Shown here: positions 1 through 14,303 of the stretch, in pieces
Layout: each line of letters starts with the position of its first letter
Numbering within the stretch: the stretch's first letter is position 1
Virus record (IMG/VR): IMGVR_UViG_2563366840_000001
DNA length: 64,000 nt
Direction: 5' to 3' (one strand)
From: a virus
Lineage: Duplodnaviria; Heunggongvirae; Uroviricota; Caudoviricetes
Position numbers and translations under genes: made by a program
Notes under the pieces: generated by a model
Told to the model about the DNA's origin: nothing
Seen by the model: only the letters and a program-made list of their open reading frames with translations
Database searches by the model: none

Positions 1-18
1 AAACCAACGTTTTAGTCT
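1..18. other. Partial cix-type inversion crossover site, truncated by the window edge
   Basis: AAACCAACGTTTT resembles the core of Hin/Gin/Cin crossover sites and lies just upstream of the invertase gene; the left half-site is outside the window. Confidence 0.3.
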
Positions 19-73
19 TAATCCCTACCTATACCAACGATGTATTTTTAACTAAACAAAGAGGTTGTTTTTC

Positions 74-646
74 ATGCAAATTGGCTACATTCGTGTGTCA
101 ACAAATGACCAAAACACAGATTTACAAAGAAATGCACTGAACTGCGCAGGATGTGAACTGATTTTTGAAGATAAAATAAGCGGAACAAAGTCAGCCAGAC
201 CAGGCTTGAAAAAGCTGCTCAGAACGTTATCAGAAGGAGATACGCTGGTTGTCTGGAAGCTGGATAGGCTTGGCAGAAGTATGAAACACCTTATCACGCT
301 TATAGAGGAGTTGCGGGAAAAAGGTGTTAATTTCCGTAGTCTGACAGACAGTATTGACACATCAACACCCATGGGGCGTTTCTTTTTTCATGTCATGGGT
401 GCTTTAGCAGAAATGGAACGTGAATTAATTGTTGAGAGAACACTGGCCGGACTGGCAGCTGCACGCGAACAGGGACGCATTGGCGGACGTCGCCCGAAGT
501 TGACAAAAGAACAACATGAGCAAATAGCGAGGTTGATCGAAAATGGCTACAGCAGGAAACAGTTGGCAATTATTTACGATATCGGTGTATCGACGATTTA
601 TCGTTATCATCCTGTAGAGAAGCGCCAAACTCAATCTGAGCTGTAA
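74..646 (+). CDS. cin: Serine DNA invertase, Cin/Gin/Hin family
   Basis: N-terminus MQIGYIRVSTNDQNTDLQRNAL with catalytic Ser motif and C-terminal HTH; ATG at 74 follows AGAGG SD (track ORF starts at upstream TTG 65). Confidence 0.92.
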   Translation: MQIGYIRVSTNDQNTDLQRNALNCAGCELIFEDKISGTKSARPGLKKLLRTLSEGDTLVVWKLDRLGRSMKHLITLIEELREKGVNFRSLTDSIDTSTPMGRFFFHVMGALAEMERELIVERTLAGLAAAREQGRIGGRRPKLTKEQHEQIARLIENGYSRKQLAIIYDIGVSTIYRYHPVEKRQTQSEL

Positions 647-1081
647 TTCTAATGCCGCGTCGGTGTAATTTATCTTGATAGAATAGGTACATTTATCGCG
701 CGGCACATCAATTCGATGTATCTAGCGCCTGCTGACCGCTAATGAAAACTGTTCTCGAAATGTTGTCCCTAGTCCGAGACTAGGGTATCACCTCTGGAAA
801 GCATACGCAGAACCTTTTTTAACCCAGGGTGCCCAGCTTTTTTGCTGCTCGCCTTATTCGCAAAAATTAGCTCACATCCTGCGCTTTCAAGTGCTTTTCA
901 CTGCATAGCTGTGTTTTGTTCATTTGTCTATATGCGTACATAGCCTATTAGCATATTTTCTGCCCACTATCGTTATTTATTGCAAGCTACAGGTTTTAAT
1001 TAACAAAACCAGTGTGTGTGGAAATCACAAAGTGCATACCGTTCTCAAATGTTGTTCAACTTACTGTTGTATAGGTAAAAA

Positions 1082-1345
1082 ATGACATTTTATGTACATA
1101 TCGTGATGTTATCCCTTCTTGGTGGGGTGTATTCGTATTTGAGTGGGCTATGTGAAAACCGTTACGAGTCTTCATGCAAGAAATTGCTGGCCGAATGTAT
1201 TTCCGCCGTACTTGCTGGCTTTATTGGCATGTATCTCGCGGAATATAAGGACATGAATGAAAGCCTTCAGAGCTGCATGGTTCTTATTTTCAGCGCCAAT
1301 AGCAGGCTTATTATTGAAGGTTCCAAAAGTCGGTTGAATAGGTAA
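1082..1345 (+). CDS. Hypothetical small membrane protein
   Basis: 87-aa ORF with hydrophobic segments between cin and lydA; weak SD. Confidence 0.35.
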   Translation: MTFYVHIVMLSLLGGVYSYLSGLCENRYESSCKKLLAECISAVLAGFIGMYLAEYKDMNESLQSCMVLIFSANSRLIIEGSKSRLNR

Positions 1346-1393
1346 GTCTCTTATGCAACATAACCGGTTGAGAAGTTACTTTGCATACCATTA

Positions 1394-1413
1394 CCTCCTG
1401 ACAACGTAGGAGG
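1394..1413 (+). promoter_or_regulatory. Hairpin sequestering the lydA Shine-Dalgarno sequence
   Basis: CCTCCT-gacaacgt-AGGAGG inverted repeat; AGGAGG sits 6 nt upstream of the GTG start at 1420. Confidence 0.45.
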
Positions 1414-1419
1414 GAACTT

Positions 1420-1749
1420 GTGCTTGACACACAGGAATTAGCTCCAGTTGCTATTGCGCTCCTGCTTTCAGTAATTGGTGGGATAGGCACGTTCCTGATG
1501 GATGTCCGAGACGGTCGCCAGTCTGGCAATTTGTTGGGATTGGTTACGGAGATCTTTGTTGCAGTGACAGCTGGCGCGGTGGCGTACCTATTGGGGCAAC
1601 ACGAGGGCTGGGAGTTATCAATTACGTACTTAATGGTAACGATAGCCAGCAATAACGGTCATGAGGTGATTTCAGGGATGAAACGAGTGAATATCGATAG
1701 CATTCTGAATGTTCTTACAAGTTTGGTGAAAAAGGGAGGCGGGAAATGA
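1420..1749 (+). CDS. lydA: Holin LydA (GTG start)
   Basis: 109-aa protein with transmembrane segments, first gene of the operon preceding lydB/hdf/darA as in P1. Confidence 0.7.
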   Translation: MLDTQELAPVAIALLLSVIGGIGTFLMDVRDGRQSGNLLGLVTEIFVAVTAGAVAYLLGQHEGWELSITYLMVTIASNNGHEVISGMKRVNIDSILNVLTSLVKKGGGK

Positions 1750-2189
1750 TTGGCTGGGGTGTATGCGTTCTTGCGTTAGCCTTAGCCGATCGCTATTTGC
1801 TAAAACGCAAGGACATCACGCATTTAGAACTTGGTGATGTGGAAATTAAACCGGGTTTCATCCGGGTGCCGTTCAAATACCGGTCTAAATTCCCGTTTTT
1901 GCGCGGCGCAACGGTCAGATATTGGATCCGCGATGTTCAGAAGCCGACGACAGTGATTGAAGGCGAACAACGTTGTTTGACGTCGGCTGAACAGGGCGAA
2001 AACAGTGAATGGTTGTACATACCCACTGAATATATGGGTAAAGGAGAGCGACTGTGGCATTTCAACGTCATGGTTACGCATGGCGACTCGTTCATTAACC
2101 CGTTGTATCGGATTTTCCCTGTTACTCAGCAAATCCGCAGAAGTTACGTAATAAATCTCGCACAGGATGTGTCAGATGACGAAAAATAA
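1746..2189 (+). CDS. lydB: Antiholin LydB
   Basis: 147-aa ORF translationally coupled to lydA; position matches the P1 darA operon. Confidence 0.65.
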   Translation: MIGWGVCVLALALADRYLLKRKDITHLELGDVEIKPGFIRVPFKYRSKFPFLRGATVRYWIRDVQKPTTVIEGEQRCLTSAEQGENSEWLYIPTEYMGKGERLWHFNVMVTHGDSFINPLYRIFPVTQQIRRSYVINLAQDVSDDEK

Positions 2190-2778
2190 GTATGCAACGG
2201 TCGATTTTGACCAGGTTAATGAAAAGGGGCTGAAATCCCTTATCGCGGCGATCAATAAAACCGGTGTTACGGTAATTGAGGTTGACTCCAGCAACCGCGC
2301 AACAACGAAAGATGGCGTTAAAGTTAAAACCGCAAAGCTGGTTCTTAACGACGGACAAATTCTTGCCATACAGGTAAACGATACTGGCGATATATCGTCT
2401 GTGAGGCTGAATGGAAAAGCTATTCCTAACGCTCAGTCGCCGGATATCAAGACGCTTGGTACCGTCATGGGGCAAGCGGCCCGCAAAAACTCCGCAAAAT
2501 TCCAGAAATCACTGATCGCCAAAGCGAAACGTGTTGCCAATCCGGTAGACAAGAAACCGGCAGTAAAATCCAACTTTCAGCGCCTGCAAGAGGCAAAACA
2601 GCGGAATGCTCAGGTGGTTGCCGCTTATAAATCAGCGCAGAACTCGGTGTCTTTCAATCAACAGCAGATCACTGATTTGCGGGCGAAGCTGGATAAGGAG
2701 ACAGGCCGACTCAATAACGAAAAGGCCCGAAATGGCGAACTCAAACGCCGTCTTAAGCAACTGAAAGCAGGAAATTAA
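2167..2778 (+). CDS. hdf: Hdf, DarA-homologous antirestriction/capsid protein
   Basis: 203 aa; shares a KNSAKFQ-containing segment with the downstream DarA; directly precedes darA. Confidence 0.75.
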   Translation: MCQMTKNKYATVDFDQVNEKGLKSLIAAINKTGVTVIEVDSSNRATTKDGVKVKTAKLVLNDGQILAIQVNDTGDISSVRLNGKAIPNAQSPDIKTLGTVMGQAARKNSAKFQKSLIAKAKRVANPVDKKPAVKSNFQRLQEAKQRNAQVVAAYKSAQNSVSFNQQQITDLRAKLDKETGRLNNEKARNGELKRRLKQLKAGN

Positions 2779-2779
2779 C

Positions 2780-4699
2780 ATGGAACAGTTCAATATCAAT
2801 AAAGGGGTGACGATCAAGCCTGGGCTTGACGTGCTTCCCCCGCCAGTGACTGATGATGAATATCGCGCATTAATGGCCGGTGAGGACCGCTATCTGATGA
2901 CGGAATCCAACACCCTGGAGGAAATCGAGGCTACGTTCTTCTATGACACGCCGATCCACTGGTGTGCTACGGATTTACTGGAGGCGATTAGTTCTACTCG
3001 TTTGCAGTTACACCGGACCATGCAGGCATTTGTCCGGGCATTAAACCAGAAGCTGAATGGTACCGGAATCTCTGCGGGGAGTGATAAAACGGGGGATGTG
3101 GCCCAGAACGGTGCACGCGCGATCGGCGGGGCTGAAATTGGCCGGGCACGTAACGTTAACGGGCTGCCGGTCCTGCCAGCCATTATTCCGCTCAGTGATG
3201 GTCAGACTATCAGCATTCTGTTTCATAGCCCGACAGCGGAAAACCGGATCACCAATAGCGATACGCTGATTGCTTTCCAGTTCTTACTGAATAAAAAAGA
3301 CGTTACTCATACCGTTGCTCCGATGAGTGGACGTGATATGACGCTGGCGCAGGTCACCATGAAACTTGCCAACCTTGCAGAGAAAAACTCGGCAAAATTC
3401 CAGCGTGCGCAGAAGAAGAAAAAAGCCCTGGTTGATGAAATAACCCAACTACAGGCTGACAGTGACCAGAAAGAGGATGCCATGAGCGACCTCGCGGATC
3501 AGGTGGCAGCGGTAGAAGGGCAGAAGGTAGATCTGGAGCAGAAAATTAACGCTGTTGCATCGGAAGCGGATTCTCTTTATGAAGAGAATGAGCGTTTGCA
3601 GACGGAGATTGATCAGCTCAATCGAACTGGTGGGCGCGAAACCATTGCTCCTGCGGGGATGACTGGTGGACACTCTCGCGCGATGACGGATCGCCTTGCA
3701 AGTATCAAAAATCGTATGCATATGAACGGGGAAGTGACGCTCAGTAATGGTGCATCAATGAAGCAATTCATTGAGGACGGTGAAGGGTATATCCAGTTAA
3801 CCGATTCGGATGGCAGCGTGTACATGATCAAGGCTAAATCCATACAGGGTGTGGACATGGCAGATGCGATCGGCAAGCTGTTTAAAGCCTATAAAGCGGG
3901 TAATGTATCGGAATACCTGGTCCAACCAGAAGAACATAAACCGGAAAACGTCGAACCTGAACCAGCGGAGGATACCGGTAGCTCTTCGCCTGAACCAGAA
4001 GTCTCTGTAGGTGCATATCGATATGCCCTGCAAATGCGTCCGGCGGCCCCTGGCGCAATACCTGAAGGTAACAAAGCAATTCTGCCGCGCCCTGATGAAG
4101 GTGACCCGTATTATGAATATGCACGCTACGGCATTGCTACTTACGATACCCCGCTTTCTGATCAGCAAATGAGTGAGTACGACCTGAAGTTATTGCCTCG
4201 CGAGGATTCTTTCGACTTCTTGGCGAAGACACTTACTAATGGTCCGTTTGGCAAATATGCACAAAAAGCTCTGGAGCTGGCCACCAGCTCACCAGACGAG
4301 TTCCGCGTAATGCTGAAAACTCAGTTTCAAAAAACTTTCCCCAATATTGCGTATCCGGGGGGCGCTGGCACCGAAAAAATGGTGCAGAGCATGATCAATG
4401 CATTGCAGGCCGAAGTCGGTGAGATTACTCAGCCAGAACCTGCCCCGGCACAGCCTGATGAAACGGTTAGCGAAGCAGATGCAGAGGCTAATAAAGCCAT
4501 TGAATATCTCAATAACGTGATGGATATGCAAAGCACTGACATGGCGGAGATCCGTAACGCCCGGGGCAATGTCCGGGAAGCGATTGCAGCCCTTCAGGCT
4601 GCCGGGCGTTTTGAGGAAAACGAAGAGCTGGTTAATGGCGCTGCTCGCCACCTGGCTGATCTGCTGGTAGCAATCCAGAAAGCGGGGGTAGCGGCATGA
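2780..4699 (+). CDS. darA: DarA antirestriction capsid protein
   Basis: 639 aa, size and operon context as in P1 DarA; coiled-coil central region. Confidence 0.85.
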   Translation: MEQFNINKGVTIKPGLDVLPPPVTDDEYRALMAGEDRYLMTESNTLEEIEATFFYDTPIHWCATDLLEAISSTRLQLHRTMQAFVRALNQKLNGTGISAGSDKTGDVAQNGARAIGGAEIGRARNVNGLPVLPAIIPLSDGQTISILFHSPTAENRITNSDTLIAFQFLLNKKDVTHTVAPMSGRDMTLAQVTMKLANLAEKNSAKFQRAQKKKKALVDEITQLQADSDQKEDAMSDLADQVAAVEGQKVDLEQKINAVASEADSLYEENERLQTEIDQLNRTGGRETIAPAGMTGGHSRAMTDRLASIKNRMHMNGEVTLSNGASMKQFIEDGEGYIQLTDSDGSVYMIKAKSIQGVDMADAIGKLFKAYKAGNVSEYLVQPEEHKPENVEPEPAEDTGSSSPEPEVSVGAYRYALQMRPAAPGAIPEGNKAILPRPDEGDPYYEYARYGIATYDTPLSDQQMSEYDLKLLPREDSFDFLAKTLTNGPFGKYAQKALELATSSPDEFRVMLKTQFQKTFPNIAYPGGAGTEKMVQSMINALQAEVGEITQPEPAPAQPDETVSEADAEANKAIEYLNNVMDMQSTDMAEIRNARGNVREAIAALQAAGRFEENEELVNGAARHLADLLVAIQKAGVAA

Positions 4700-5061
4700 C
4701 ACTATCAGCTATTGAGTTAATGGATCTCAGCGATAAGTTGGATGCTCTGATGTCCAAAGCGGCTACCGCGAGTGGCATGGAGTTGCTGGATATCAGCGAT
4801 GAAATCGACCAGATCATGCAACAGATGGGGTACGGCGCGTCCGGCGGTGGTAGTGGCGAGGAAAAACAACCTTCGGAACATGATGGTGTGCCAAAACTGG
4901 TTGCTGATTTCCTGGCTGATAAATTCGTCGATCAGAGCACCGATGCATTTATCGGTACCTTGCAGGATTTGAGTCAATATGTTGGCACATACATCGACCT
5001 GGACCAGGTTAAACAGCACACGGCGGCATGGATAGCCGCCAACATTAAAGAGGCAGCATAA
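4696..5061 (+). CDS. ddrA: DdrA (Dar operon)
   Basis: 121-aa ORF overlapping the darA stop (ATGA coupling). Confidence 0.7.
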   Translation: MTLSAIELMDLSDKLDALMSKAATASGMELLDISDEIDQIMQQMGYGASGGGSGEEKQPSEHDGVPKLVADFLADKFVDQSTDAFIGTLQDLSQYVGTYIDLDQVKQHTAAWIAANIKEAA

Positions 5062-5073
5062 GGCGTAACAGGG

Positions 5074-8061
5074 ATGAGCTTAAGCGATCAGGTGGTAATG
5101 GCCACCAGCATAGAAACGCTGATCGAGCTGCTAAAGAACTTGCCCGATTATGGGCGGGTTTCGTATGTGGTGACAGCGAAGGGAGACGAGGTAAAAACAG
5201 CGTTTGATATCGTCGATGCCTCAGCTCTTTTGGTATCCAATACTCTGGATGGGAAAATTAATCCTGACTATCCCCAGGAACTTCAACCGCGCGACCGGAC
5301 CCGCGCATCCAGCCTTCTTCAGGTTAACCAGATATCCAAGGATTTGCGGCCTGCTCAGCTTACCGATTCCGGTCTATCCAGCCATGGCGCGCCGATAATT
5401 GGTGAGGACAATGCCGTTGAGTCAGGTAATGGACGGACCATGGGGATCATTAAAGCCTATCAGGACGGCAATGCGGATCGGTATCGTGAGTACCTGATTG
5501 ATCATGCGACCGAATTCGGCATACGACCTGAAAAGGTTGAATCAATGACGGCTCCGGTACTGGTGCGCCGCCGGTTAACTAAGGTTGACCGCGTTCAGTT
5601 TGCCAAGGACTCAAATATTTCTGATCTTCAGGAAATGGCAGCCAGTGAAAAGGCTTTTGTTGATGCCGACAGCATAACACCGGCGATGATGGCGCTTTTT
5701 AACCCGTCAGAAAGCGGAGATCTGCTTAGCCGCAGTAATGACACGTTTATTCGCGGATTTATGACGCAAGTTGGTGCCACACAGGCGGCTGGCCTTGTAA
5801 CTGAAGATGGGCGACCAACACGGCAACTTGTAGACCGTATACAAAACGCGATCTTTGCCAAGGCATATAAGGATGCGCGCCTGGTAAGGATGGTTGCAGA
5901 AGAACCTGATCCGGATATGCGTAATGTTCTGACGGCGCTTAATGCGGCAGCCAATGATTTTGTCCAGATGCAGGCTTTGTCAGGAGAAGCGCACAAGCAG
6001 GCTGTGACAACTATTGTTGATGGCATTGAGACAGCGGATAGCCTCGATAAAAAGGCGCTGGCGGCATTGAAAGATGCGGTAGACCTGGTAAGGCAATCGA
6101 AGGAGTCAGGCCAGCATATTACCGATGTTATTGCTCAGGGGGATATGTTCAGCGAAACGGCCCCGGAAGTGAAAGCACTCGCGTTGTTCATCGTCGCGAA
6201 TAACCGTAGCGCGAAGCGTATGGCCACCGCCTTTAAGTTGATGGCGCAACGTATCAATGATGAGTTACAGCACCAGGGCCAGGCGCTCGGGGATATGTTT
6301 GGCGGCGGCGATGTGTCGTTACAGGATATCCTTCGCCAGGTGTCTCAGGAACTGGAAAACGAAGGCATGCAAGGGATATCCGGCGGTCTTTTCGAGTCCG
6401 TTTCCGGCGGTAGTTACAACGGTGTTGCTCCATATACCAGCTTGCTATTACATCGGGCATCCGGCATCAAAGACATTATTCATCTGATCAGGCTGCTATC
6501 CCGCACCGATCCCCAGGATGAGCAGCTTGTACAAGTGCTTGCGCATTTTGTCCGAATGCCTGTTGCCGACGTAAAAAAATGGTGCCGATTATTCGGTATC
6601 AGCAATTCGTTACTTCGCGGATTGTTAAATCACGCATCCTCCCTTGGGCGCGACGGCTTTGATGAGATAGCGCAGGCGATAAAAAACGGAGATATGCCAC
6701 CAGCTATTGACTGGTTTTCCATTCGCCCAACCAGGGTGAAAGCATTCCTTAGCGCGGCGCATTCGGCATCACCATTGGCAGAAATGGTTCAGAGGTTGTC
6801 GCTCATATTCACAGACCATACCGCGTTGGGTGATCTGACTCTGGACGAGATGAAAGAAGCCTCCATTCAGTGGGCCGATCAACAAAATGAGGTTAACTCT
6901 GACTTCTTGCCAGCATTCAGGAAGGCCGTTAGTAAAGTGGATGATGCCCGTGGAATTCTGAAGGCATTTAAGGCATTGCAAAGTCGGGTTAATAAACATG
7001 TCGGTGATATCGATGGGGTAACGGCGGAAGGCAGGGATATCCTTAAAGAGCACGGCATAACGCCAGAGTTTATTGATGAGATCAGGACGGATATGCAGCG
7101 TGAGGTCGTATCGTCCCTGCAAATCGTAGCCAGAGCGTTGGCGGATGCTAATCCGAAGAGTGCGGCCATTGTTAACCGGGTTATTGGTGATATTGAAGCA
7201 TCGGAGGGCATGGGGGCGCTGAAACTCTTCCTTTCGCGAGCGTTTAATCCTAACGGCAATATTCTCCCCGGCATTATTTGTGAGGCTAAAAAGTATGTCA
7301 GCGAAGAAGAACTTGAGCATCTTGACCAACTACTTAAGCGATTCTCATATAACCCGCAGACACGCTGGCAAATGAATCAGCGAAGTATGGGTTCGGTCCA
7401 CGAGAAAGTGTTATCTGCCATGAACAGTGCGATCGCCAACTCATCCGTATCTGAAGAAAAAGCTCTTGAGTGGGCCGACTCTTTTATCACGGAAGAAGTG
7501 GAAGAAGCCCGCGCTGGACAGAATGGTGGGATAGACCTGCGCAAGGAACTTGCTGATATTTATCGCCTGACCGGCGGTAAAATTTCGACCTTATCAAAGG
7601 TGGTTCACCACCAGGGAAGGGCATATGCAAATCTAAATGGTGTTGTTGCTGTCAATTTGAACGATGAAAATGCAAGTGCACTGTGGCACGAGCTGGGTCA
7701 TCATCTTGAGTACAGTAACCCTGGTTTGTTAGAGAAAGCCCGGTCATTCCTGAAGGCCAATGTTGAAGGGGATAAGCCATCTTTCGTTAATATCGGTGGG
7801 CGTGGCAAGCCTGAATGGTGCTTCAGATCTCGATTGAGTAATATTTATATGGCGAAGGTATACCCGCCAGCCTCAGTAAGTAACACCGGGAAAATTCGGC
7901 AGAAATCACCGACTATTTCCAAAACGTCAGCAACGGAAGTATTCTCTATGGCTCTTCAGTTGTATCATGACAAAGAGGCCGCTGCCGCATCACTGATGAA
8001 TGGTGACGGATTGCTGGAACTGTTATTAGGTGTGGCAAAGGAGCTAAATAATGCAGATTAA
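5074..8061 (+). CDS. ddrB: DdrB, large Dar-operon capsid-associated protein
   Basis: 995-aa ORF following ddrA. Confidence 0.8.
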   Translation: MSLSDQVVMATSIETLIELLKNLPDYGRVSYVVTAKGDEVKTAFDIVDASALLVSNTLDGKINPDYPQELQPRDRTRASSLLQVNQISKDLRPAQLTDSGLSSHGAPIIGEDNAVESGNGRTMGIIKAYQDGNADRYREYLIDHATEFGIRPEKVESMTAPVLVRRRLTKVDRVQFAKDSNISDLQEMAASEKAFVDADSITPAMMALFNPSESGDLLSRSNDTFIRGFMTQVGATQAAGLVTEDGRPTRQLVDRIQNAIFAKAYKDARLVRMVAEEPDPDMRNVLTALNAAANDFVQMQALSGEAHKQAVTTIVDGIETADSLDKKALAALKDAVDLVRQSKESGQHITDVIAQGDMFSETAPEVKALALFIVANNRSAKRMATAFKLMAQRINDELQHQGQALGDMFGGGDVSLQDILRQVSQELENEGMQGISGGLFESVSGGSYNGVAPYTSLLLHRASGIKDIIHLIRLLSRTDPQDEQLVQVLAHFVRMPVADVKKWCRLFGISNSLLRGLLNHASSLGRDGFDEIAQAIKNGDMPPAIDWFSIRPTRVKAFLSAAHSASPLAEMVQRLSLIFTDHTALGDLTLDEMKEASIQWADQQNEVNSDFLPAFRKAVSKVDDARGILKAFKALQSRVNKHVGDIDGVTAEGRDILKEHGITPEFIDEIRTDMQREVVSSLQIVARALADANPKSAAIVNRVIGDIEASEGMGALKLFLSRAFNPNGNILPGIICEAKKYVSEEELEHLDQLLKRFSYNPQTRWQMNQRSMGSVHEKVLSAMNSAIANSSVSEEKALEWADSFITEEVEEARAGQNGGIDLRKELADIYRLTGGKISTLSKVVHHQGRAYANLNGVVAVNLNDENASALWHELGHHLEYSNPGLLEKARSFLKANVEGDKPSFVNIGGRGKPEWCFRSRLSNIYMAKVYPPASVSNTGKIRQKSPTISKTSATEVFSMALQLYHDKEAAAASLMNGDGLLELLLGVAKELNNAD

Positions 8062-8362
8062 AATCGCAGCGCCATTAGGCGGAGATGCCATTATCGAATT
8101 TGATGATAATGAAGAAGTTTCCGGGCGTTTAAGCATTATCTCCGGTGACATTACCGAGGACATGATCGCTGAAGCCATAGCTGGGGCAAATCCCAATAGC
8201 TATATGGGATTCGTTAACACCCTTGATGCTCCCGCAAGTGATGTTCTCCGAACGCTACATCTTTACGCTGGCTGGTTTGTTGATTGGCCAGCAGTAGATG
8301 GTGGCGATGAGGACGACGACGACGATGATTTTGGTGATCATGTAGACCAGATCGTATATTGA
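8051..8362 (+). CDS. Small highly acidic protein ending the Dar operon
   Basis: 103 aa, D/E-rich with a C-terminal DEDDDDDD run; overlaps the ddrB stop. Confidence 0.6.
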   Translation: MQIKIAAPLGGDAIIEFDDNEEVSGRLSIISGDITEDMIAEAIAGANPNSYMGFVNTLDAPASDVLRTLHLYAGWFVDWPAVDGGDEDDDDDDFGDHVDQIVY

Positions 8363-8365
8363 AGA

Positions 8366-8393
8366 AATCCCGCCAATCGGCGGGATTTTTTTT
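8366..8393. terminator. Rho-independent terminator (bidirectional) between convergent operons
   Basis: AATCCCGCC-aatc-GGCGGGATT stem followed by T8; A-run on the other side. Confidence 0.8.
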
Positions 8394-9180
8394 AATCGCT
8401 TTCCACTTCTTCCGTGGTGTTTTCTTGCAGTTCTGTTAATGCAGCACGACATAGGTTCCGGGCATTGGCTATAGCTACACTTTTGACTTCATCTGTCATC
8501 GTGCAGGTAATGTACTGATCGAGTTCTTCAGCGCGGATGATGCTTTTGCCAATCAGAAACTGTATTTGCCAGAGCAGATCGGCATCCATAATCAGAATTT
8601 CTGCCGGGCCTTCAGGGCCAGCCGGGAAGGAAACATAAGACTGTTTGCCCAGGCCGATAACTCGACAACTTGCTTCAAGAATTGCGCGATTGAGGTCTGA
8701 CTTTGTAACTGAAACAGGTTGATTTTCACCTGCGATTACGCCGTTGACATGGATGTGGAATGGCATGTAGCTTGAAATTCGCTCTACTTTCCATACGCCA
8801 GCAAGCGATCCTTCATGCAGCACAATGGGGGTAACCGCGAGTTTCATCTCACCATATAACTGCTGGCAGATGGCTGGATTGCTGAATACATCCAAAGGTT
8901 CACACTCAAACAGCGGCGCAATCTGCATGAGGTCCATCATGGTCATACCAGGGGTACGAGCAGTAATGAATCTGCGCATGCCAGTATCCATTGTGCGCCA
9001 GATAGCTACACCATGCTTTTTGCTCACTTCTTCAGTAAAGCCAAGGTGGCACATGATGGTTTTTTCGATAGCCAGATCAGAGATAGAAACCTTTTCGCCA
9101 GGTACACCATCATTATTGATGGCCACTTCGACACTCTGGCCATTACGCAGGCGGTATTGAATTGCTTTAGTATTTTCCAC
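8392..9180 (-). CDS. Hypothetical protein in the ssb operon
   Basis: 262-aa ORF directly downstream of the DUF2829 gene on the minus strand. Confidence 0.6.
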   Translation of the reverse strand: MENTKAIQYRLRNGQSVEVAINNDGVPGEKVSISDLAIEKTIMCHLGFTEEVSKKHGVAIWRTMDTGMRRFITARTPGMTMMDLMQIAPLFECEPLDVFSNPAICQQLYGEMKLAVTPIVLHEGSLAGVWKVERISSYMPFHIHVNGVIAGENQPVSVTKSDLNRAILEASCRVIGLGKQSYVSFPAGPEGPAEILIMDADLLWQIQFLIGKSIIRAEELDQYITCTMTDEVKSVAIANARNLCRAALTELQENTTEEVESD

Positions 9181-9186
9181 GTTAAA

Positions 9187-9864
9187 TCACTCCACTACAA
9201 ACCAGTCACATGCCAGTAAGTCGCCTACAGAAGGCACCCACGGAACAACTACACCTTGTGCATTTTTTAAGGCGAAATAAGCACCATACGGAACGAGGTC
9301 GCCGGGGAAATATCCCTTAATGGCTTCCATTCGTGCCGGGTACTGTCCTTCAGGAACCAGCCAGCAGAATTGGTTTTCGCCGTTCCACCCGCGTCGAGCA
9401 ACTTTCTTGCCATCCTTCAGCCACATCAGCGCGTCAGAAAAGTCGGCTGCTTCAAGGTCGATTTCTTCTTGTGTGGTAATGATGCCACTGGCAGCAATAG
9501 TTACGTCCCTGGCTGTAATGAATGTCACCCCATTGTGACCTTCAATACTGAGCGATACCCCATTTTCGAAGAAGTCGTTAGTCCGACTAAAGCCTTCTTC
9601 AAATGTTTTTTCTGGTGAATAGGACAGAGATCCGTCCTCATAAGCGACCAGATATCCGCCAATTTCTGGTCGGTGTTTTTGCAAAAACATTTTATCAACA
9701 TGGACTTTTACCCCTTCTGGCTCAACGACTTCGATGTTGCAAAAAAGGACCACATCCATTAGGGCGATAATTTCGATATCTTTGATTTTTGAGGCGCGAA
9801 CTGTTTTATGGCTTTTGTATTTTGGAAGTGCCGTCAAAAGCTCTTTCGTTGTCATGTTATTCAT
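9187..9864 (-). CDS. DUF2829 (Tad2-like) domain protein
   Basis: C-terminus ARRGWNGENQF...WVPSVGDLLACDWFVVE matches the DUF2829 signature; ATG at 9864 has an AGGAAAG SD; the track ORF extends to 10032 via a basic low-complexity N-terminus. Confidence 0.6.
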   Translation of the reverse strand: MNNMTTKELLTALPKYKSHKTVRASKIKDIEIIALMDVVLFCNIEVVEPEGVKVHVDKMFLQKHRPEIGGYLVAYEDGSLSYSPEKTFEEGFSRTNDFFENGVSLSIEGHNGVTFITARDVTIAASGIITTQEEIDLEAADFSDALMWLKDGKKVARRGWNGENQFCWLVPEGQYPARMEAIKGYFPGDLVPYGAYFALKNAQGVVVPWVPSVGDLLACDWFVVE

Positions 9865-10066
9865 AGTCTTTCCTCTGCTTAAAACCTGATGTATTGCGCC
9901 TTCAGGTGGGTCAGGAATGTTTTCCCACCAGCGAAAGCAATATCTCGGGGTGTTCTTTTCGTGAAAAGCGCGTGCCATTGCCAACTTTGGCGTTTTTTTG
10001 CGAGTTCGTGCTTTTGTCGGCGTCTTGACCACCGCTTTTCTTTCAGTCGTTTTTTACTCATAAACT

Positions 10067-10555
10067 CTAAAACGGAATATCGTCGTCAAAGTCCATTGGA
10101 GATTCGTTATTGGCGTTGCTCTGAGGTTTACCGCCACCACTGTATTGCTGGTGGTTTTGAGGTTGGTTTGATTGCCCCCAGCCATTTGAGGACTGTGAAT
10201 CGTCACGGCGAGCGCCGATCATTTGCATGGTGCCGCCCTGGCTGACGATAATTTCCGTCGTGTAACGTTCTACACCGGCGTCATCTGTCCACTTACGGGT
10301 TTTAAGTTTTCCTTCGATGTAGACCTGAGAACCTTTTCGTAAATACTCACTCGCAATTTCAGCAAGTTTCCCGAACAAAACGACTCTATGCCATTCTGTT
10401 TGCTCTTTCTGTTGGCCCGTTTGCTTGTCGCGCCATGATTCATTTGTTGCGATGCTTAGTCTTCCGACCGTTCCGCCATTTGGTATATACCTGATCTCCG
10501 GGTCTTGCCCCAGAGTACCAATCAGGATGACTTTGTTTACACCGCGTTGTGCCAC
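10067..10555 (-). CDS. ssb: Single-stranded DNA-binding protein
   Basis: [22 protein letters not shown]-fold N-terminus and acidic C-terminal tail DFDDDIPF; probable GTG start (track ORF starts at upstream TTG 10576). Confidence 0.93.
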
Positions 10556-10574
10556 TTTTCTTACCCAATAAAAC

Positions 10575-10591
10575 AAATTAATTAGAGCAAT
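10575..10591 (-). promoter_or_regulatory. C1 operator 17-mer (ATTGCTCTAATTAATTT on minus strand)
   Basis: 16/17 match to the P1 C1 operator consensus ATTGCTCTAATAAATTT; in the ssb/lyz divergent region. Confidence 0.7.
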
Positions 10592-10723
10592 AATGTATAT
10601 CTTTGAAACGTAGCTAACAAGTGATTTGCATTATCCTGTGTCTTCTAAAGGGATCGAGTCAGTCGGTATTGGCTGTGAATGGGTGTTTGTCCTGGAGCGT
10701 AAAAATTCGCTTATGAGGTCTTT

Positions 10724-11281
10724 ATGAAGGGAAAAACAGCCGCAGGAGGCGGTGCAATTTGCGCTATCGCGGTGATGATTACCATCGTAATGGGTAATGG
10801 CAATGTGCGAACCAACCAGGCGGGGCTTGAGCTGATTGGTAACGCTGAAGGTTGCCGACGTGATCCATACATGTGCCCGGCGGGGGTATGGACTGACGGG
10901 ATCGGTAATACACACGGGGTAACGCCGGGTGTGCGAAAAACCGACCAGCAAATCGCCGCTGATTGGGAAAAGAATATCCTGATCGCTGAACGCTGTATTA
11001 ATCAGCACTTCCGGGGCAAAGACATGCCCGATAATGCCTTTAGTGCAATGACAAGCGCGGCATTCAATATGGGATGCAATAGCTTACGGACCTACTACAG
11101 CAAAGCGCGAGGCATGCGAGTCGAAACGTCCATCCACAAGTGGGCGCAGAAAGGGGAATGGGTGAATATGTGTAACCATCTCCCTGATTTTGTGAACAGT
11201 AACGGCGTGCCCCTGCGAGGTTTAAAGATTCGCCGTGAAAAAGAACGCCAGCTTTGCCTGACGGGACTGGTCAATGAATAA
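10724..11281 (+). CDS. lyz: SAR endolysin (lysozyme)
   Basis: 185 aa; N-terminal signal-arrest-release hydrophobic segment GGGAICAIAVMITIVMG followed by a lysozyme domain; matches the recalled P1 Lyz sequence. Confidence 0.95.
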   Translation: MKGKTAAGGGAICAIAVMITIVMGNGNVRTNQAGLELIGNAEGCRRDPYMCPAGVWTDGIGNTHGVTPGVRKTDQQIAADWEKNILIAERCINQHFRGKDMPDNAFSAMTSAAFNMGCNSLRTYYSKARGMRVETSIHKWAQKGEWVNMCNHLPDFVNSNGVPLRGLKIRREKERQLCLTGLVNE

Positions 11282-11525
11282 ACTCCGGCAGCTCCGCAGA
11301 CTTTCGACAATGAAGTTATCGCTGGCAGCGATAGTTTTCGACTCGATTTTCATGGCGGTATATGTGCTTAATGAAACGTGGCCACTGGAACCGCTATTGT
11401 ATGCTGGGCTTCGGCTGTGCCTGACATTTTTGAGCATGGCCGCGAGATTGATGCAGCAGAAAGAAACCGCTTCAGATTGTCCACGCCGCGCGGTGCGCAA
11501 TTATATGGCACGCAGACGAAGGTGA
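11274..11525 (+). CDS. Small membrane protein downstream of lyz
   Basis: 83-aa ORF overlapping the lyz stop, hydrophobic N-terminal region; followed by a terminator. Confidence 0.4.
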   Translation: MNKLRQLRRLSTMKLSLAAIVFDSIFMAVYVLNETWPLEPLLYAGLRLCLTFLSMAARLMQQKETASDCPRRAVRNYMARRRR

Positions 11526-11541
11526 TAATAGTTAACGAGAA

Positions 11542-11567
11542 CCCCGGCACTCGCCGGGGTTATTTTT
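11542..11567 (+). terminator. Rho-independent terminator
   Basis: CCCCGGC-actc-GCCGGGG stem followed by TTATTTTT. Confidence 0.75.
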
Positions 11568-11572
11568 GGTGG

Positions 11573-14303
<2,731 letters not shown>

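What the first reader, a model, noticed from the sequence alone, without database searches (positions are those of the whole stretch)
1..646. Invertase gene at the window edge with a truncated crossover site
cin is intact, but the inversion site upstream of it is cut by the window start, so the invertible tail-fiber C-segment must lie just outside. Which fiber variant is expressed cannot be read from this window.
Basis: partly seen in the sequence, partly recalled or inferred. Interest (0 to 1): 0.2.

Follow-up and report, generated by a model that had tools for sequence, protein, structure and literature searches.

The report
Min invertase with cut crossover site
The left edge of this P1-like phage-plasmid holds an intact DNA invertase gene and the last 19 of 26 bases of its crossover site, but it is the long-known Min tail-fibre switching system of plasmid p15B, not phage P1's Cin system, so the finding is real and ordinary.

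Summary
Window 74-646 (+) encodes an intact 190-aa serine invertase, and window 1-19 is the last 19 nt of a 26-bp crossover site cut by the window start.

The labels are wrong. The protein is 74% identical to P1 Cin and 81% to e14 Pin. The 19 nt equal the published p15B site mixMl''L' (TTCCCCCAAACC AA CGTTTTAGTCTT), not cixL or cixR. The gene runs opposite to P1 cin, with the site 5' of it. Window 1-1929 is collinear with p15B X62121 nt 6366-8294. A dead cin 5' stub lies at 778-954 (-).

In nine relatives examined, the DNA just outside the window is not a two-site S/U C-segment. It is a Min-type cluster of 2-13 mix-type sites separating ~150-aa tail-fibre C-terminal cassettes and one tfa gene, with one inverted site in the constant S gene.

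Two 96,320-bp plasmids, identical to the window over its first 1,100 bases, are exact isomers. All eight mix-bounded segments are 100% identical but inverted or permuted, so the system is active in nature.

No tail-fibre homologue lies in the window, so the expressed variant cannot be read. This is already known biology and of low interest.

The parts
1..19 (+). Right 19 nt of the invertase-proximal 26-bp crossover site, published as mixMl''L'. The central AA is at 6-7. The seven left-most bases (TTCCCC[C/T]) lie outside the window.
   Evidence: Sequence. The full site is seen in relatives. It is identical to the p15B site in PMC3241671 Table 3.
59..64 (+). Shine-Dalgarno-like AAGAGG, 9 nt before the ATG of the invertase gene.
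   Evidence: Read directly. This is an inference. No sigma-70 consensus promoter was found on the + strand between the site and the ATG.
74..646 (+). min-type DNA invertase gene, a Din-family serine recombinase of 190 aa. It is intact.
   Evidence: Pfam Resolvase and HTH_7. 81% identical to Pin, 74% to Cin and 72% to Gin, with Ser9 conserved. PDB Gin at 3.9e-92. The exact sequence is UniRef Q05517_ECOLX 'DNA-invertase'.
92..163 (+). Presumed Fis-dependent recombinational enhancer (sis) inside the 5' part of the invertase gene.
   Evidence: This stretch is positionally equivalent to the enhancer annotated in P1 at cin nt 19-90. It is 58/72 identical to that enhancer. Window 98-168 is 83.1% identical to P1 31684-31754, as the P1 record states for p15B 6463-6533. 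Function is inferred, not tested.
778..954 (-). Remnant of the first 59 codons of the ancestral cin gene. It is a pseudogene. It carries a copy of the cin enhancer region at 865-936.
   Evidence: 157/177 nt identical to P1 cin. It translates to MLIGYVRI*TNEQNTAMQ*..., and the catalytic Ser9 codon TCA is now TAG. The enhancer copy is 62/72 identical to P1's.
955..1045 (-). Decayed cin promoter region, corresponding to P1cin and P2cin of P1.
   Evidence: Alignment to P1, using the promoter coordinates of the P1 record. The P1cin -10 TAAAAT is TAAAAC here, and the P2cin hexamers are not conserved.
1082..1345 (+). lydC-like holin gene, the first gene of the P1-type backbone (lydC, lydA, lydB, hdf, darA) that fixes the orientation of the invertase gene.
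   Evidence: Pfam Phage_holin_3_3, LydB and DarA_N/C. Annotations of relatives and of P1.

Best explanation
The window starts inside the invertase-proximal crossover site of a Min-type multiple DNA-inversion system, first described on plasmid p15B, carried by a P1-like phage-plasmid.

The 190-aa Min invertase is a Din-family serine recombinase closest to e14 Pin. By inference from the Hin, Gin and Cin paradigm, it binds as dimers to 26-bp mix sites. It is activated by Fis bound to an enhancer inside the 5' end of its own gene. It cuts at the central AA, rotates the half-sites and rejoins them, which inverts the DNA between oppositely oriented sites.

One fixed site lies in the constant part of tail-fibre gene S, encoding ...YLGLGEG.... 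The other fixed site is the one cut by the window edge. Between them lie several more sites that separate ~150-aa C-terminal cassettes and a single tfa gene. Successive inversions fuse different receptor-binding ends to S and so change host range.

Shown here: the intact gene, the identity of the site, the collinearity with p15B, the architecture in relatives, and natural isomers. Inferred: Fis and enhancer dependence, the catalytic mechanism, and the presence and composition of the cassette array upstream of this particular molecule.
For: - Gene and domains.
- Window 1-19 is identical to the last 19 nt of the published mixMl''L' site.
- P1-versus-window identities of 83.1, 89.7, 83.3 and 99.8% fall at the coordinates predicted from the P1 record's notes on p15B X62121 (offset 6365). 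The annotated values are 83, 89, 84 and 99%.
- The exact protein is UniRef Q05517_ECOLX.
- PMC6906374 reports a Min-like invertase (98.5% aa to p15B Min) in reverse orientation to cin in a P1-like plasmid.
- 114 plasmid records match window 1-1100 at 99% identity or more, and 158 cover at least 80% of it.
- Eight relatives scanned carry 2-13 mix-type sites, only in the tail-fibre region. Each of nine relatives has exactly one inverted site in S.
- pD72-mcr1 and pS13-1, both 96,320 bp, have eight mix-bounded segments that are each 100% identical. One of 5,276 bp is inverted and seven are permuted.
- The same cassette proteins occur in opposite orientations in different plasmids.
Against: - The partner sites and cassettes of this particular molecule are outside the window and were not seen.
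- The source record was not found. The best 25-kb matches are 97-98% identical, and the genome and viral scans gave only non-identical relatives.
- X62121 itself is not held in the collections, so identity to p15B Min rests on indirect fingerprints.
- No consensus promoter was found for the gene.
- Enhancer function rests on 58/72 identity inside a coding region, where protein constraint also conserves sequence.
Confidence: 0.9

Rival explanations
1. One reading: this is phage P1's cin gene with a truncated cix site, and the classical two-site C-segment (Sv/U and Sv'/U') lies just outside.
For: The backbone is P1-like, with lydC, lydA, lydB, hdf, darA and ddrA at 94-98% nt identity to P1 or P7. 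The invertase belongs to the same Din family as Cin, at 74% aa identity. A cin fragment does exist nearby at 778-954.
Against: - Nucleotide similarity to P1 starts only at window 778.
- The protein is closer to Pin (81%) than to Cin (74%).
- The site equals mixMl''L' and differs from cixL at 6 of 12 and from cixR at 7 of 12 right-half bases.
- P1 cin is on the other strand, with cixL at its 3' end.
- Seven of the eight relatives scanned carry multi-cassette arrays, not S/U pairs.
- The cin copy here is a stub with two stop codons.
Confidence: 0.03
2. An orphan or crippled switch. The invertase and its proximal site are intact, but in this molecule the invertible region upstream is reduced, deleted or interrupted, so little or no fibre switching occurs.
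For: PMC6906374 describes P1-like plasmids in which the invertase target region is 'greatly modified' and the switch is probably impaired. Phage 813R1 has only two sites. mcr-1 and ISApl1 have inserted inside the invertible region in some relatives. Nothing upstream of the window can be seen.
Against: All nine relatives checked keep an inverted partner site in S. All 18 IMG/VR contigs keep the completed left half-site. The invertase gene is under evident conservation, with at least 114 plasmid records at 99% identity or more. Even the mcr-1-bearing plasmids are found as inversion isomers.
Confidence: 0.07

Closest known systems
Min multiple DNA-inversion system of E. coli 15T- plasmid p15B (min gene, six mix sites; Iida 1990 and Sandmeier 1990/1992, as cited in PMC6906374 and PMC3241671; GenBank X62121)
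   Same: The visible part of the crossover site is identical to mixMl''L'. The gene lies 5' to 3' away from the invertible region, on the same strand as lydC and lydA. Window 1-1929 is collinear with X62121 6366-8294 by four independent identity fingerprints. The cin-like remnant downstream matches the p15B 7147-7408 similarity noted in the P1 record. Relatives carry sites identical to mixMr''N', mixN''O' and mixQ''R'.
   Different: Nothing substantive within the window. Among relatives the number of sites varies from 2 to 13, against six in p15B. Some carry cargo such as mcr-1 inside an invertible segment. Direct percent identity to X62121 could not be computed.
Pin system of the defective prophage e14 (pinE, pixL/pixR, stfE/tfaE and stfP/tfaP)
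   Same: It has the closest characterised invertase, at 81% aa identity. The gene has the same orientation relative to the invertible segment. The left half-site is very similar: TTCTCCCAAACC AA against TTCCCCCAAACC AA.
   Different: Pin has two sites and one invertible segment. The right half-sites differ. The genomic context differs: e14 against a P1-type plasmid prophage.
Cin/C-segment of phage P1 and Gin/G-segment of phage Mu
   Same: Same Din family (74% and 72% aa identity). Same function of switching tail-fibre C-termini. The crossover site sits at the same ...YLGL... position of the S gene. The enhancer lies in the 5' part of the recombinase gene.
   Different: These are two-site, two-state switches with large Sv/U modules. 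The cix and gix sequences differ. P1 cin is inverted relative to the gene here and has cixL at its 3' end.
R64 shufflon (Rci)
   Same: It works alike at the level of outcome. Multiple sites shuffle alternative C-terminal cassettes onto a constant N-terminal part.
   Different: Rci is a tyrosine recombinase with asymmetric sfx sites, and its target is the PilV adhesin. There is no homology, and this is not a member of that family. This comparison rests on established knowledge and was not tested here.

Membership tests
Din family of DNA invertases (Hin/Gin/Cin/Pin/Min) | A small (~190 aa) serine recombinase with an N-terminal catalytic domain containing the active-site Ser9/10 and a C-terminal HTH. 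| tested here: met
   Pfam Resolvase 2.1e-51 and HTH_7 3.4e-15. Ser9 is invariant in the alignment with Pin, Cin and Gin. PDB Gin at 3.9e-92.
Din family of DNA invertases (Hin/Gin/Cin/Pin/Min) | [quoted passage not shown] | tested here: met
   19 of the 26 bp are in the window, and relatives supply the rest. The complete site is TTCCCCCAAACC AA CGTTTTAGTCTT.
Din family of DNA invertases (Hin/Gin/Cin/Pin/Min) | A Fis-dependent recombinational enhancer located in cis, within the 5' part of the invertase gene. | tested here: inconclusive
   Window 92-163 is 58/72 identical to the enhancer annotated in P1. The sequence also codes for protein, and Fis binding cannot be tested with these tools.
Din family of DNA invertases (Hin/Gin/Cin/Pin/Min) | A partner site in inverted orientation on the same molecule. 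| not testable with these tools
   It lies outside the window, and the source record was not found. It is present in 9 of 9 relatives.
Min system of p15B | The invertase-proximal site has the sequence of mixMl''L'. | tested here: met
   19 of 19 visible bases are identical.
Min system of p15B | The invertase is Min (X62121), and the region is collinear with p15B min-lydA. | tested here: met
   The test is indirect. Four P1-versus-window identities and gap counts match those the P1 record gives for p15B at a constant offset of 6365. The exact protein is UniRef Q05517_ECOLX. X62121 itself is not held.
Min system of p15B | A cluster of more than two crossover sites that delimit overlapping invertible segments with alternative tail-fibre 3' ends. 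| not testable with these tools
   It lies outside the window. Relatives that match window 1-1100 at 99.5-100% carry 3-13 such sites; 813R1, which matches only from window 72, carries 2. Exact isomers exist.
Cin/C-segment system of phage P1 | The invertase is Cin, and the site is cixL or cixR. | tested here: not met
   74% aa identity to Cin, and no nucleotide match to P1 before window 778. The right half-site differs from cixL at 6 of 12 and from cixR at 7 of 12 positions.
Cin/C-segment system of phage P1 | cin is transcribed toward the C-segment, with cixL overlapping its 3' end, divergent from lydC. | tested here: not met
   Here the gene is co-directional with lydC and the site is 55 nt upstream of its ATG.

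The most novel reading that the evidence does not exclude
The cin stub at 778-954 (-) may not be inert. It keeps a 62/72-identical copy of the P1 recombinational enhancer about 770 bp from the one inside min. It also keeps the old cin promoter region, which points into the 3' end of min. It could therefore act as a second Fis-bound enhancer or as a source of antisense transcription that tunes inversion frequency. My evidence does not exclude this, but the -10 of P1cin has lost its invariant T and P2cin is not conserved.
Probability: 0.05. Interest if true: 0.3.

Novelty: already known. Interest (0 to 1): 0.1.

Why it matters
The value is mainly for correct annotation. In P1-like phage-plasmids of this widespread type, the invertase next to lydC is min, not cin. 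The region beyond it is a multi-cassette host-range shuffler that short-read assemblies often break in.

It also means the tail-fibre allele, and in some relatives the orientation of an embedded mcr-1 gene, is a population variable rather than a fixed feature of the sequence. There is no new biology in the window itself.

Tried and rejected
- Source record. I tried to find it so as to read the real upstream DNA. The 25-kb megablast against plasmids and E. coli genomes gave at best 97-98% identity. An exact 42-nt scan of genome contigs gave one contig with 3 mismatches in 2,254 nt. The same scan of IMG/VR gave 18 contigs, none identical.\n- Primary papers and records. I tried to read the p15B papers (PMC53420) and the P1 genome paper (PMC523184), and to fetch X62121 and MN510445. 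None is held.\n- Promoter. The scan found no + strand sigma-70 consensus between the site and the ATG.\n- RNA families. Rfam found nothing in 1-1500.\n- Naming. NCBIfam gave only sub-threshold hits for the invertase and none for the cassette or tfa proteins.\n- Transposon resolvase reading. Rejected, because the protein is 72-81% identical to the phage invertases, against E-values of about 1e-30 for the gamma-delta and Tn3 resolvases.\n- Minus-strand ORFs inside the gene (85-372 and others). Treated as antisense noise, with no supporting evidence.\n- A second site-like repeat at window 24-49. It matches the mix site at only 16/26, so I do not call it a site.

Full report
**What is in the sequence**

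Window 1-646 contains an ORF from ATG 74 to TAA 646 on the + strand. It encodes 190 aa with a full Resolvase catalytic domain (2.1e-51) and an HTH_7 DNA-binding domain (3.4e-15). It matches the solved Gin invertase at 3.9e-92 over residues 1-185. It shares 117 invariant positions, including Ser9, with Pin, Cin and Gin. The gene is intact.

The genes downstream are lydC, lydA, lydB, hdf, darA and ddrA of a P1-type phage-plasmid. Rfam finds no RNA family in 1-1500.

**The truncated site**

The window begins AAACC AA CGTTTTAGTCTT. The 1,100 bases at the window start match 114 plasmid records at 99% identity or more, and 128 E. coli genome records likewise. In these records, and in 18 of 18 IMG/VR contigs containing window 1-42, the preceding bases are TTC[C/T]CC[C/T]. 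They complete a 26-bp site, TTCCCCCAAACC AA CGTTTTAGTCTT.

This is letter for letter the p15B site mixMl''L' listed in Table 3 of PMC3241671. So 19 of 26 bases are in the window and 7 are cut off. The exchange dinucleotide AA is at window 6-7.

**It is Min, not Cin**

- Megablast to P1 aligns only from window 778 onward, so the invertase gene itself has no close P1 counterpart.
- The protein is 81% identical to e14 Pin, 74% to P1 Cin and 72% to Mu Gin.
- In P1, oriented like the window, cin lies on the opposite strand. It is transcribed toward the C-segment, and cixL overlaps its 3' end. Here the gene is co-directional with lydC, and the site is 55 nt upstream of its ATG.
- The visible right half-site differs from cixL at 6 of 12 positions and from cixR at 7 of 12.

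The P1 RefSeq record notes four stretches of similarity to p15B (X62121). With a constant offset (p15B = window + 6365), I recomputed the P1-versus-window identities at the predicted places:

| Stretch (p15B nt) | P1 vs window, recomputed | P1 vs p15B, as annotated |
|---|---|---|
| 6463-6533 | 83.1%, 0 gaps | 83% |
| 7147-7408 | 89.7%, 1 gap | 89% |
| 7483-7638 | 83.3% | 84% |
| 7728-8294 | 99.8% | 99% |

Window 1-1929 is therefore collinear with p15B 6366-8294.

The exact protein is UniRef Q05517_ECOLX 'DNA-invertase'. PMC6906374 had already reported a Min-like invertase (98.5% aa to p15B Min), in reverse orientation to cin, in a P1-like plasmid.

**The real cin is a stub**

Window 778-954 on the minus strand is 157/177 identical to the first 59 codons of P1 cin. 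It translates to MLIGYVRI*TNEQNTAMQ*..., and the catalytic Ser codon TCA is now TAG. It retains a 62/72 copy of the annotated cin enhancer, at window 865-936. The former cin promoter region is at 955-1045. There the P1cin -10 TAAAAT has become TAAAAC, and the P2cin hexamers are not conserved.

This fits my recollection of the published account that Min replaced a Cin-like system in an ancestral P1/p15B genome. I could not read those papers here.

**What lies outside the window**

I fetched the upstream region from phages 673R5 and 813R1 and from plasmids of eleven strains. Upstream of the invertase there is a tail-fibre gene S with a constant N-terminal part. It is followed by an array of ~150-aa 'phage tail protein' cassettes in both orientations and a single tfa gene.

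A scan for the conserved 20 nt of the site found 2-13 sites per record in the eight relatives scanned. All lie in this region and none elsewhere, and there is no complete one in the window. In seven of the eight scanned records the sites form one block in '-' orientation and one in '+' orientation. In the eighth, L012, the only '-' site is the diverged fixed site in S, which the relaxed search found. Each of nine relatives has exactly one fixed site in S, TTCTTGATTACC TT GGTTT[A/G]GG[G/A]GAA (TTAATT in the two phage records), matching published mixQ''R'. It encodes ...DYLGLGEG....

This is the Min architecture, not P1's two-site C-segment with Sv/U and U'/Sv'.

**Evidence that the system works**

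pD72-mcr1 (E. coli) and pS13-1 (Salmonella) are both 96,320 bp and are identical to the window over 1-1100. I cut both at the central AA of their nine sites. Each of the eight resulting segments is 100% identical between the two plasmids. The 5,276-bp segment, which carries tfa, ISApl1 and mcr-1, is inverted. The seven segments of 439-514 bp are in a different order.

The same cassette proteins also appear in opposite orientations in other plasmids. WP_001408994.1 is next to S in one record and next to the invertase in another. The tfa protein WP_000367945.1 occurs in both orientations.

**Mechanism**

Shown here: the recombinase, the site, and the outcome, namely isomers whose junctions fall exactly at the site cores.

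Inferred from established knowledge of Hin, Gin and Cin:
- Dimers bind the 26-bp sites.
- A Fis-bound enhancer in the 5' part of the gene assembles the invertasome on supercoiled DNA. That enhancer would be window 92-163, which is 58/72 identical to P1's.
- Ser9 makes staggered cuts at the central AA, followed by a 180-degree subunit rotation and religation.
- The result is in-frame fusion of alternative C-terminal cassettes to S, which changes receptor specificity.

No consensus promoter for the gene was found. AAGAGG at 59-64 is a plausible ribosome-binding site.

**Limits**

The source molecule was not identified. Its own cassette array is therefore unknown, and a reduced or disrupted array cannot be excluded; I put that at about 7%. 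tblastn of the S, cassette, tfa, R and U proteins finds nothing in the 64 kb.

**Verdict**

The feature is real and correctly located, and it is broadly correctly interpreted as an invertase with a cut crossover site. It is mislabelled: it is min and mix, not cin and cix, and the region outside is a multi-cassette cluster, not the C-segment. The system has been known since 1990 and is common in P1-like plasmids. Interest is low.

Noticed in passing
window 778-954 (-), with 865-936 and 955-1045: A dead 5' stub of the ancestral cin gene, 157/177 nt identical to P1. It has two in-frame stops, and the catalytic Ser codon is now TAG. It keeps a 62/72 copy of the cin enhancer and a decayed cin promoter region that points toward the 3' end of min.
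   Followed up: yes
window 767-785: An 8-nt inverted repeat, CCCTAGTC (767-774) and GACTAGGG (778-785). Its right arm starts exactly at the first base of P1 homology. It may be a scar of the event that replaced cin by the Min module, or a small hairpin.
   Followed up: no
window 24-51: The half-site core ACCAACG recurs at 33, 30 nt after the copy at 3. There are only six + strand copies in the whole 64 kb. Window 24-49 matches the mix site at 16/26. This is too weak to call a site. It could be a vestigial or regulatory half-site overlapping the untranslated leader of min.
   Followed up: partly
window 1 (edge); loci L019-L036: The window starts one base after the C/T-variable position of the left half-site. 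That is the first position at which inversion isomers would differ when reading out from min. In 7 of 18 IMG/VR contigs the contig ends 18-650 nt upstream of this point. Assemblies seem to break in the cassette array, so the window edge may be a contig end caused by inversion heterogeneity.
   Followed up: partly
L017 (NZ_CP035313.1) 5571-9566; L018 (CP047090.1) 5251-9246: In the relatives pD72-mcr1 and pS13-1, the colistin-resistance gene mcr-1 and ISApl1 sit inside a 5,276-bp Min-invertible segment next to tfa. The two plasmids are exact inversion isomers, so the resistance cassette flips with the tail-fibre switch.
   Followed up: yes
L002 (ON470617.2) 10012-11947; also plasmid hits whose match starts at window 72: Phage vB_EcoM-813R1 and some plasmids share the min gene from window 72 onward. 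Upstream they have a pixR-like proximal site (CTTCCCTAAACCAACGTTTAAGAAAA) and a single Stf/TfaE-type invertible segment. The same invertase is thus paired with a simpler, Pin-like substrate.
   Followed up: partly
L012 (NC_017653.1) 2768-5535; L009 4515-5126: The only tfa (tail-fibre assembly) gene lies on an invertible segment. In some deposited isomers it points away from the expressed S gene, so chaperone expression may also depend on the inversion state.
   Followed up: no
L001 (ON470615.2) 12074-12645: In phage vB_EcoM-673R5 the same invertase gene is annotated as two ORFs, 'Hin2' and 'Hin1'. The record is 99.5% identical to the window, so this is probably a frameshift from sequencing error rather than a real split.
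   Followed up: no
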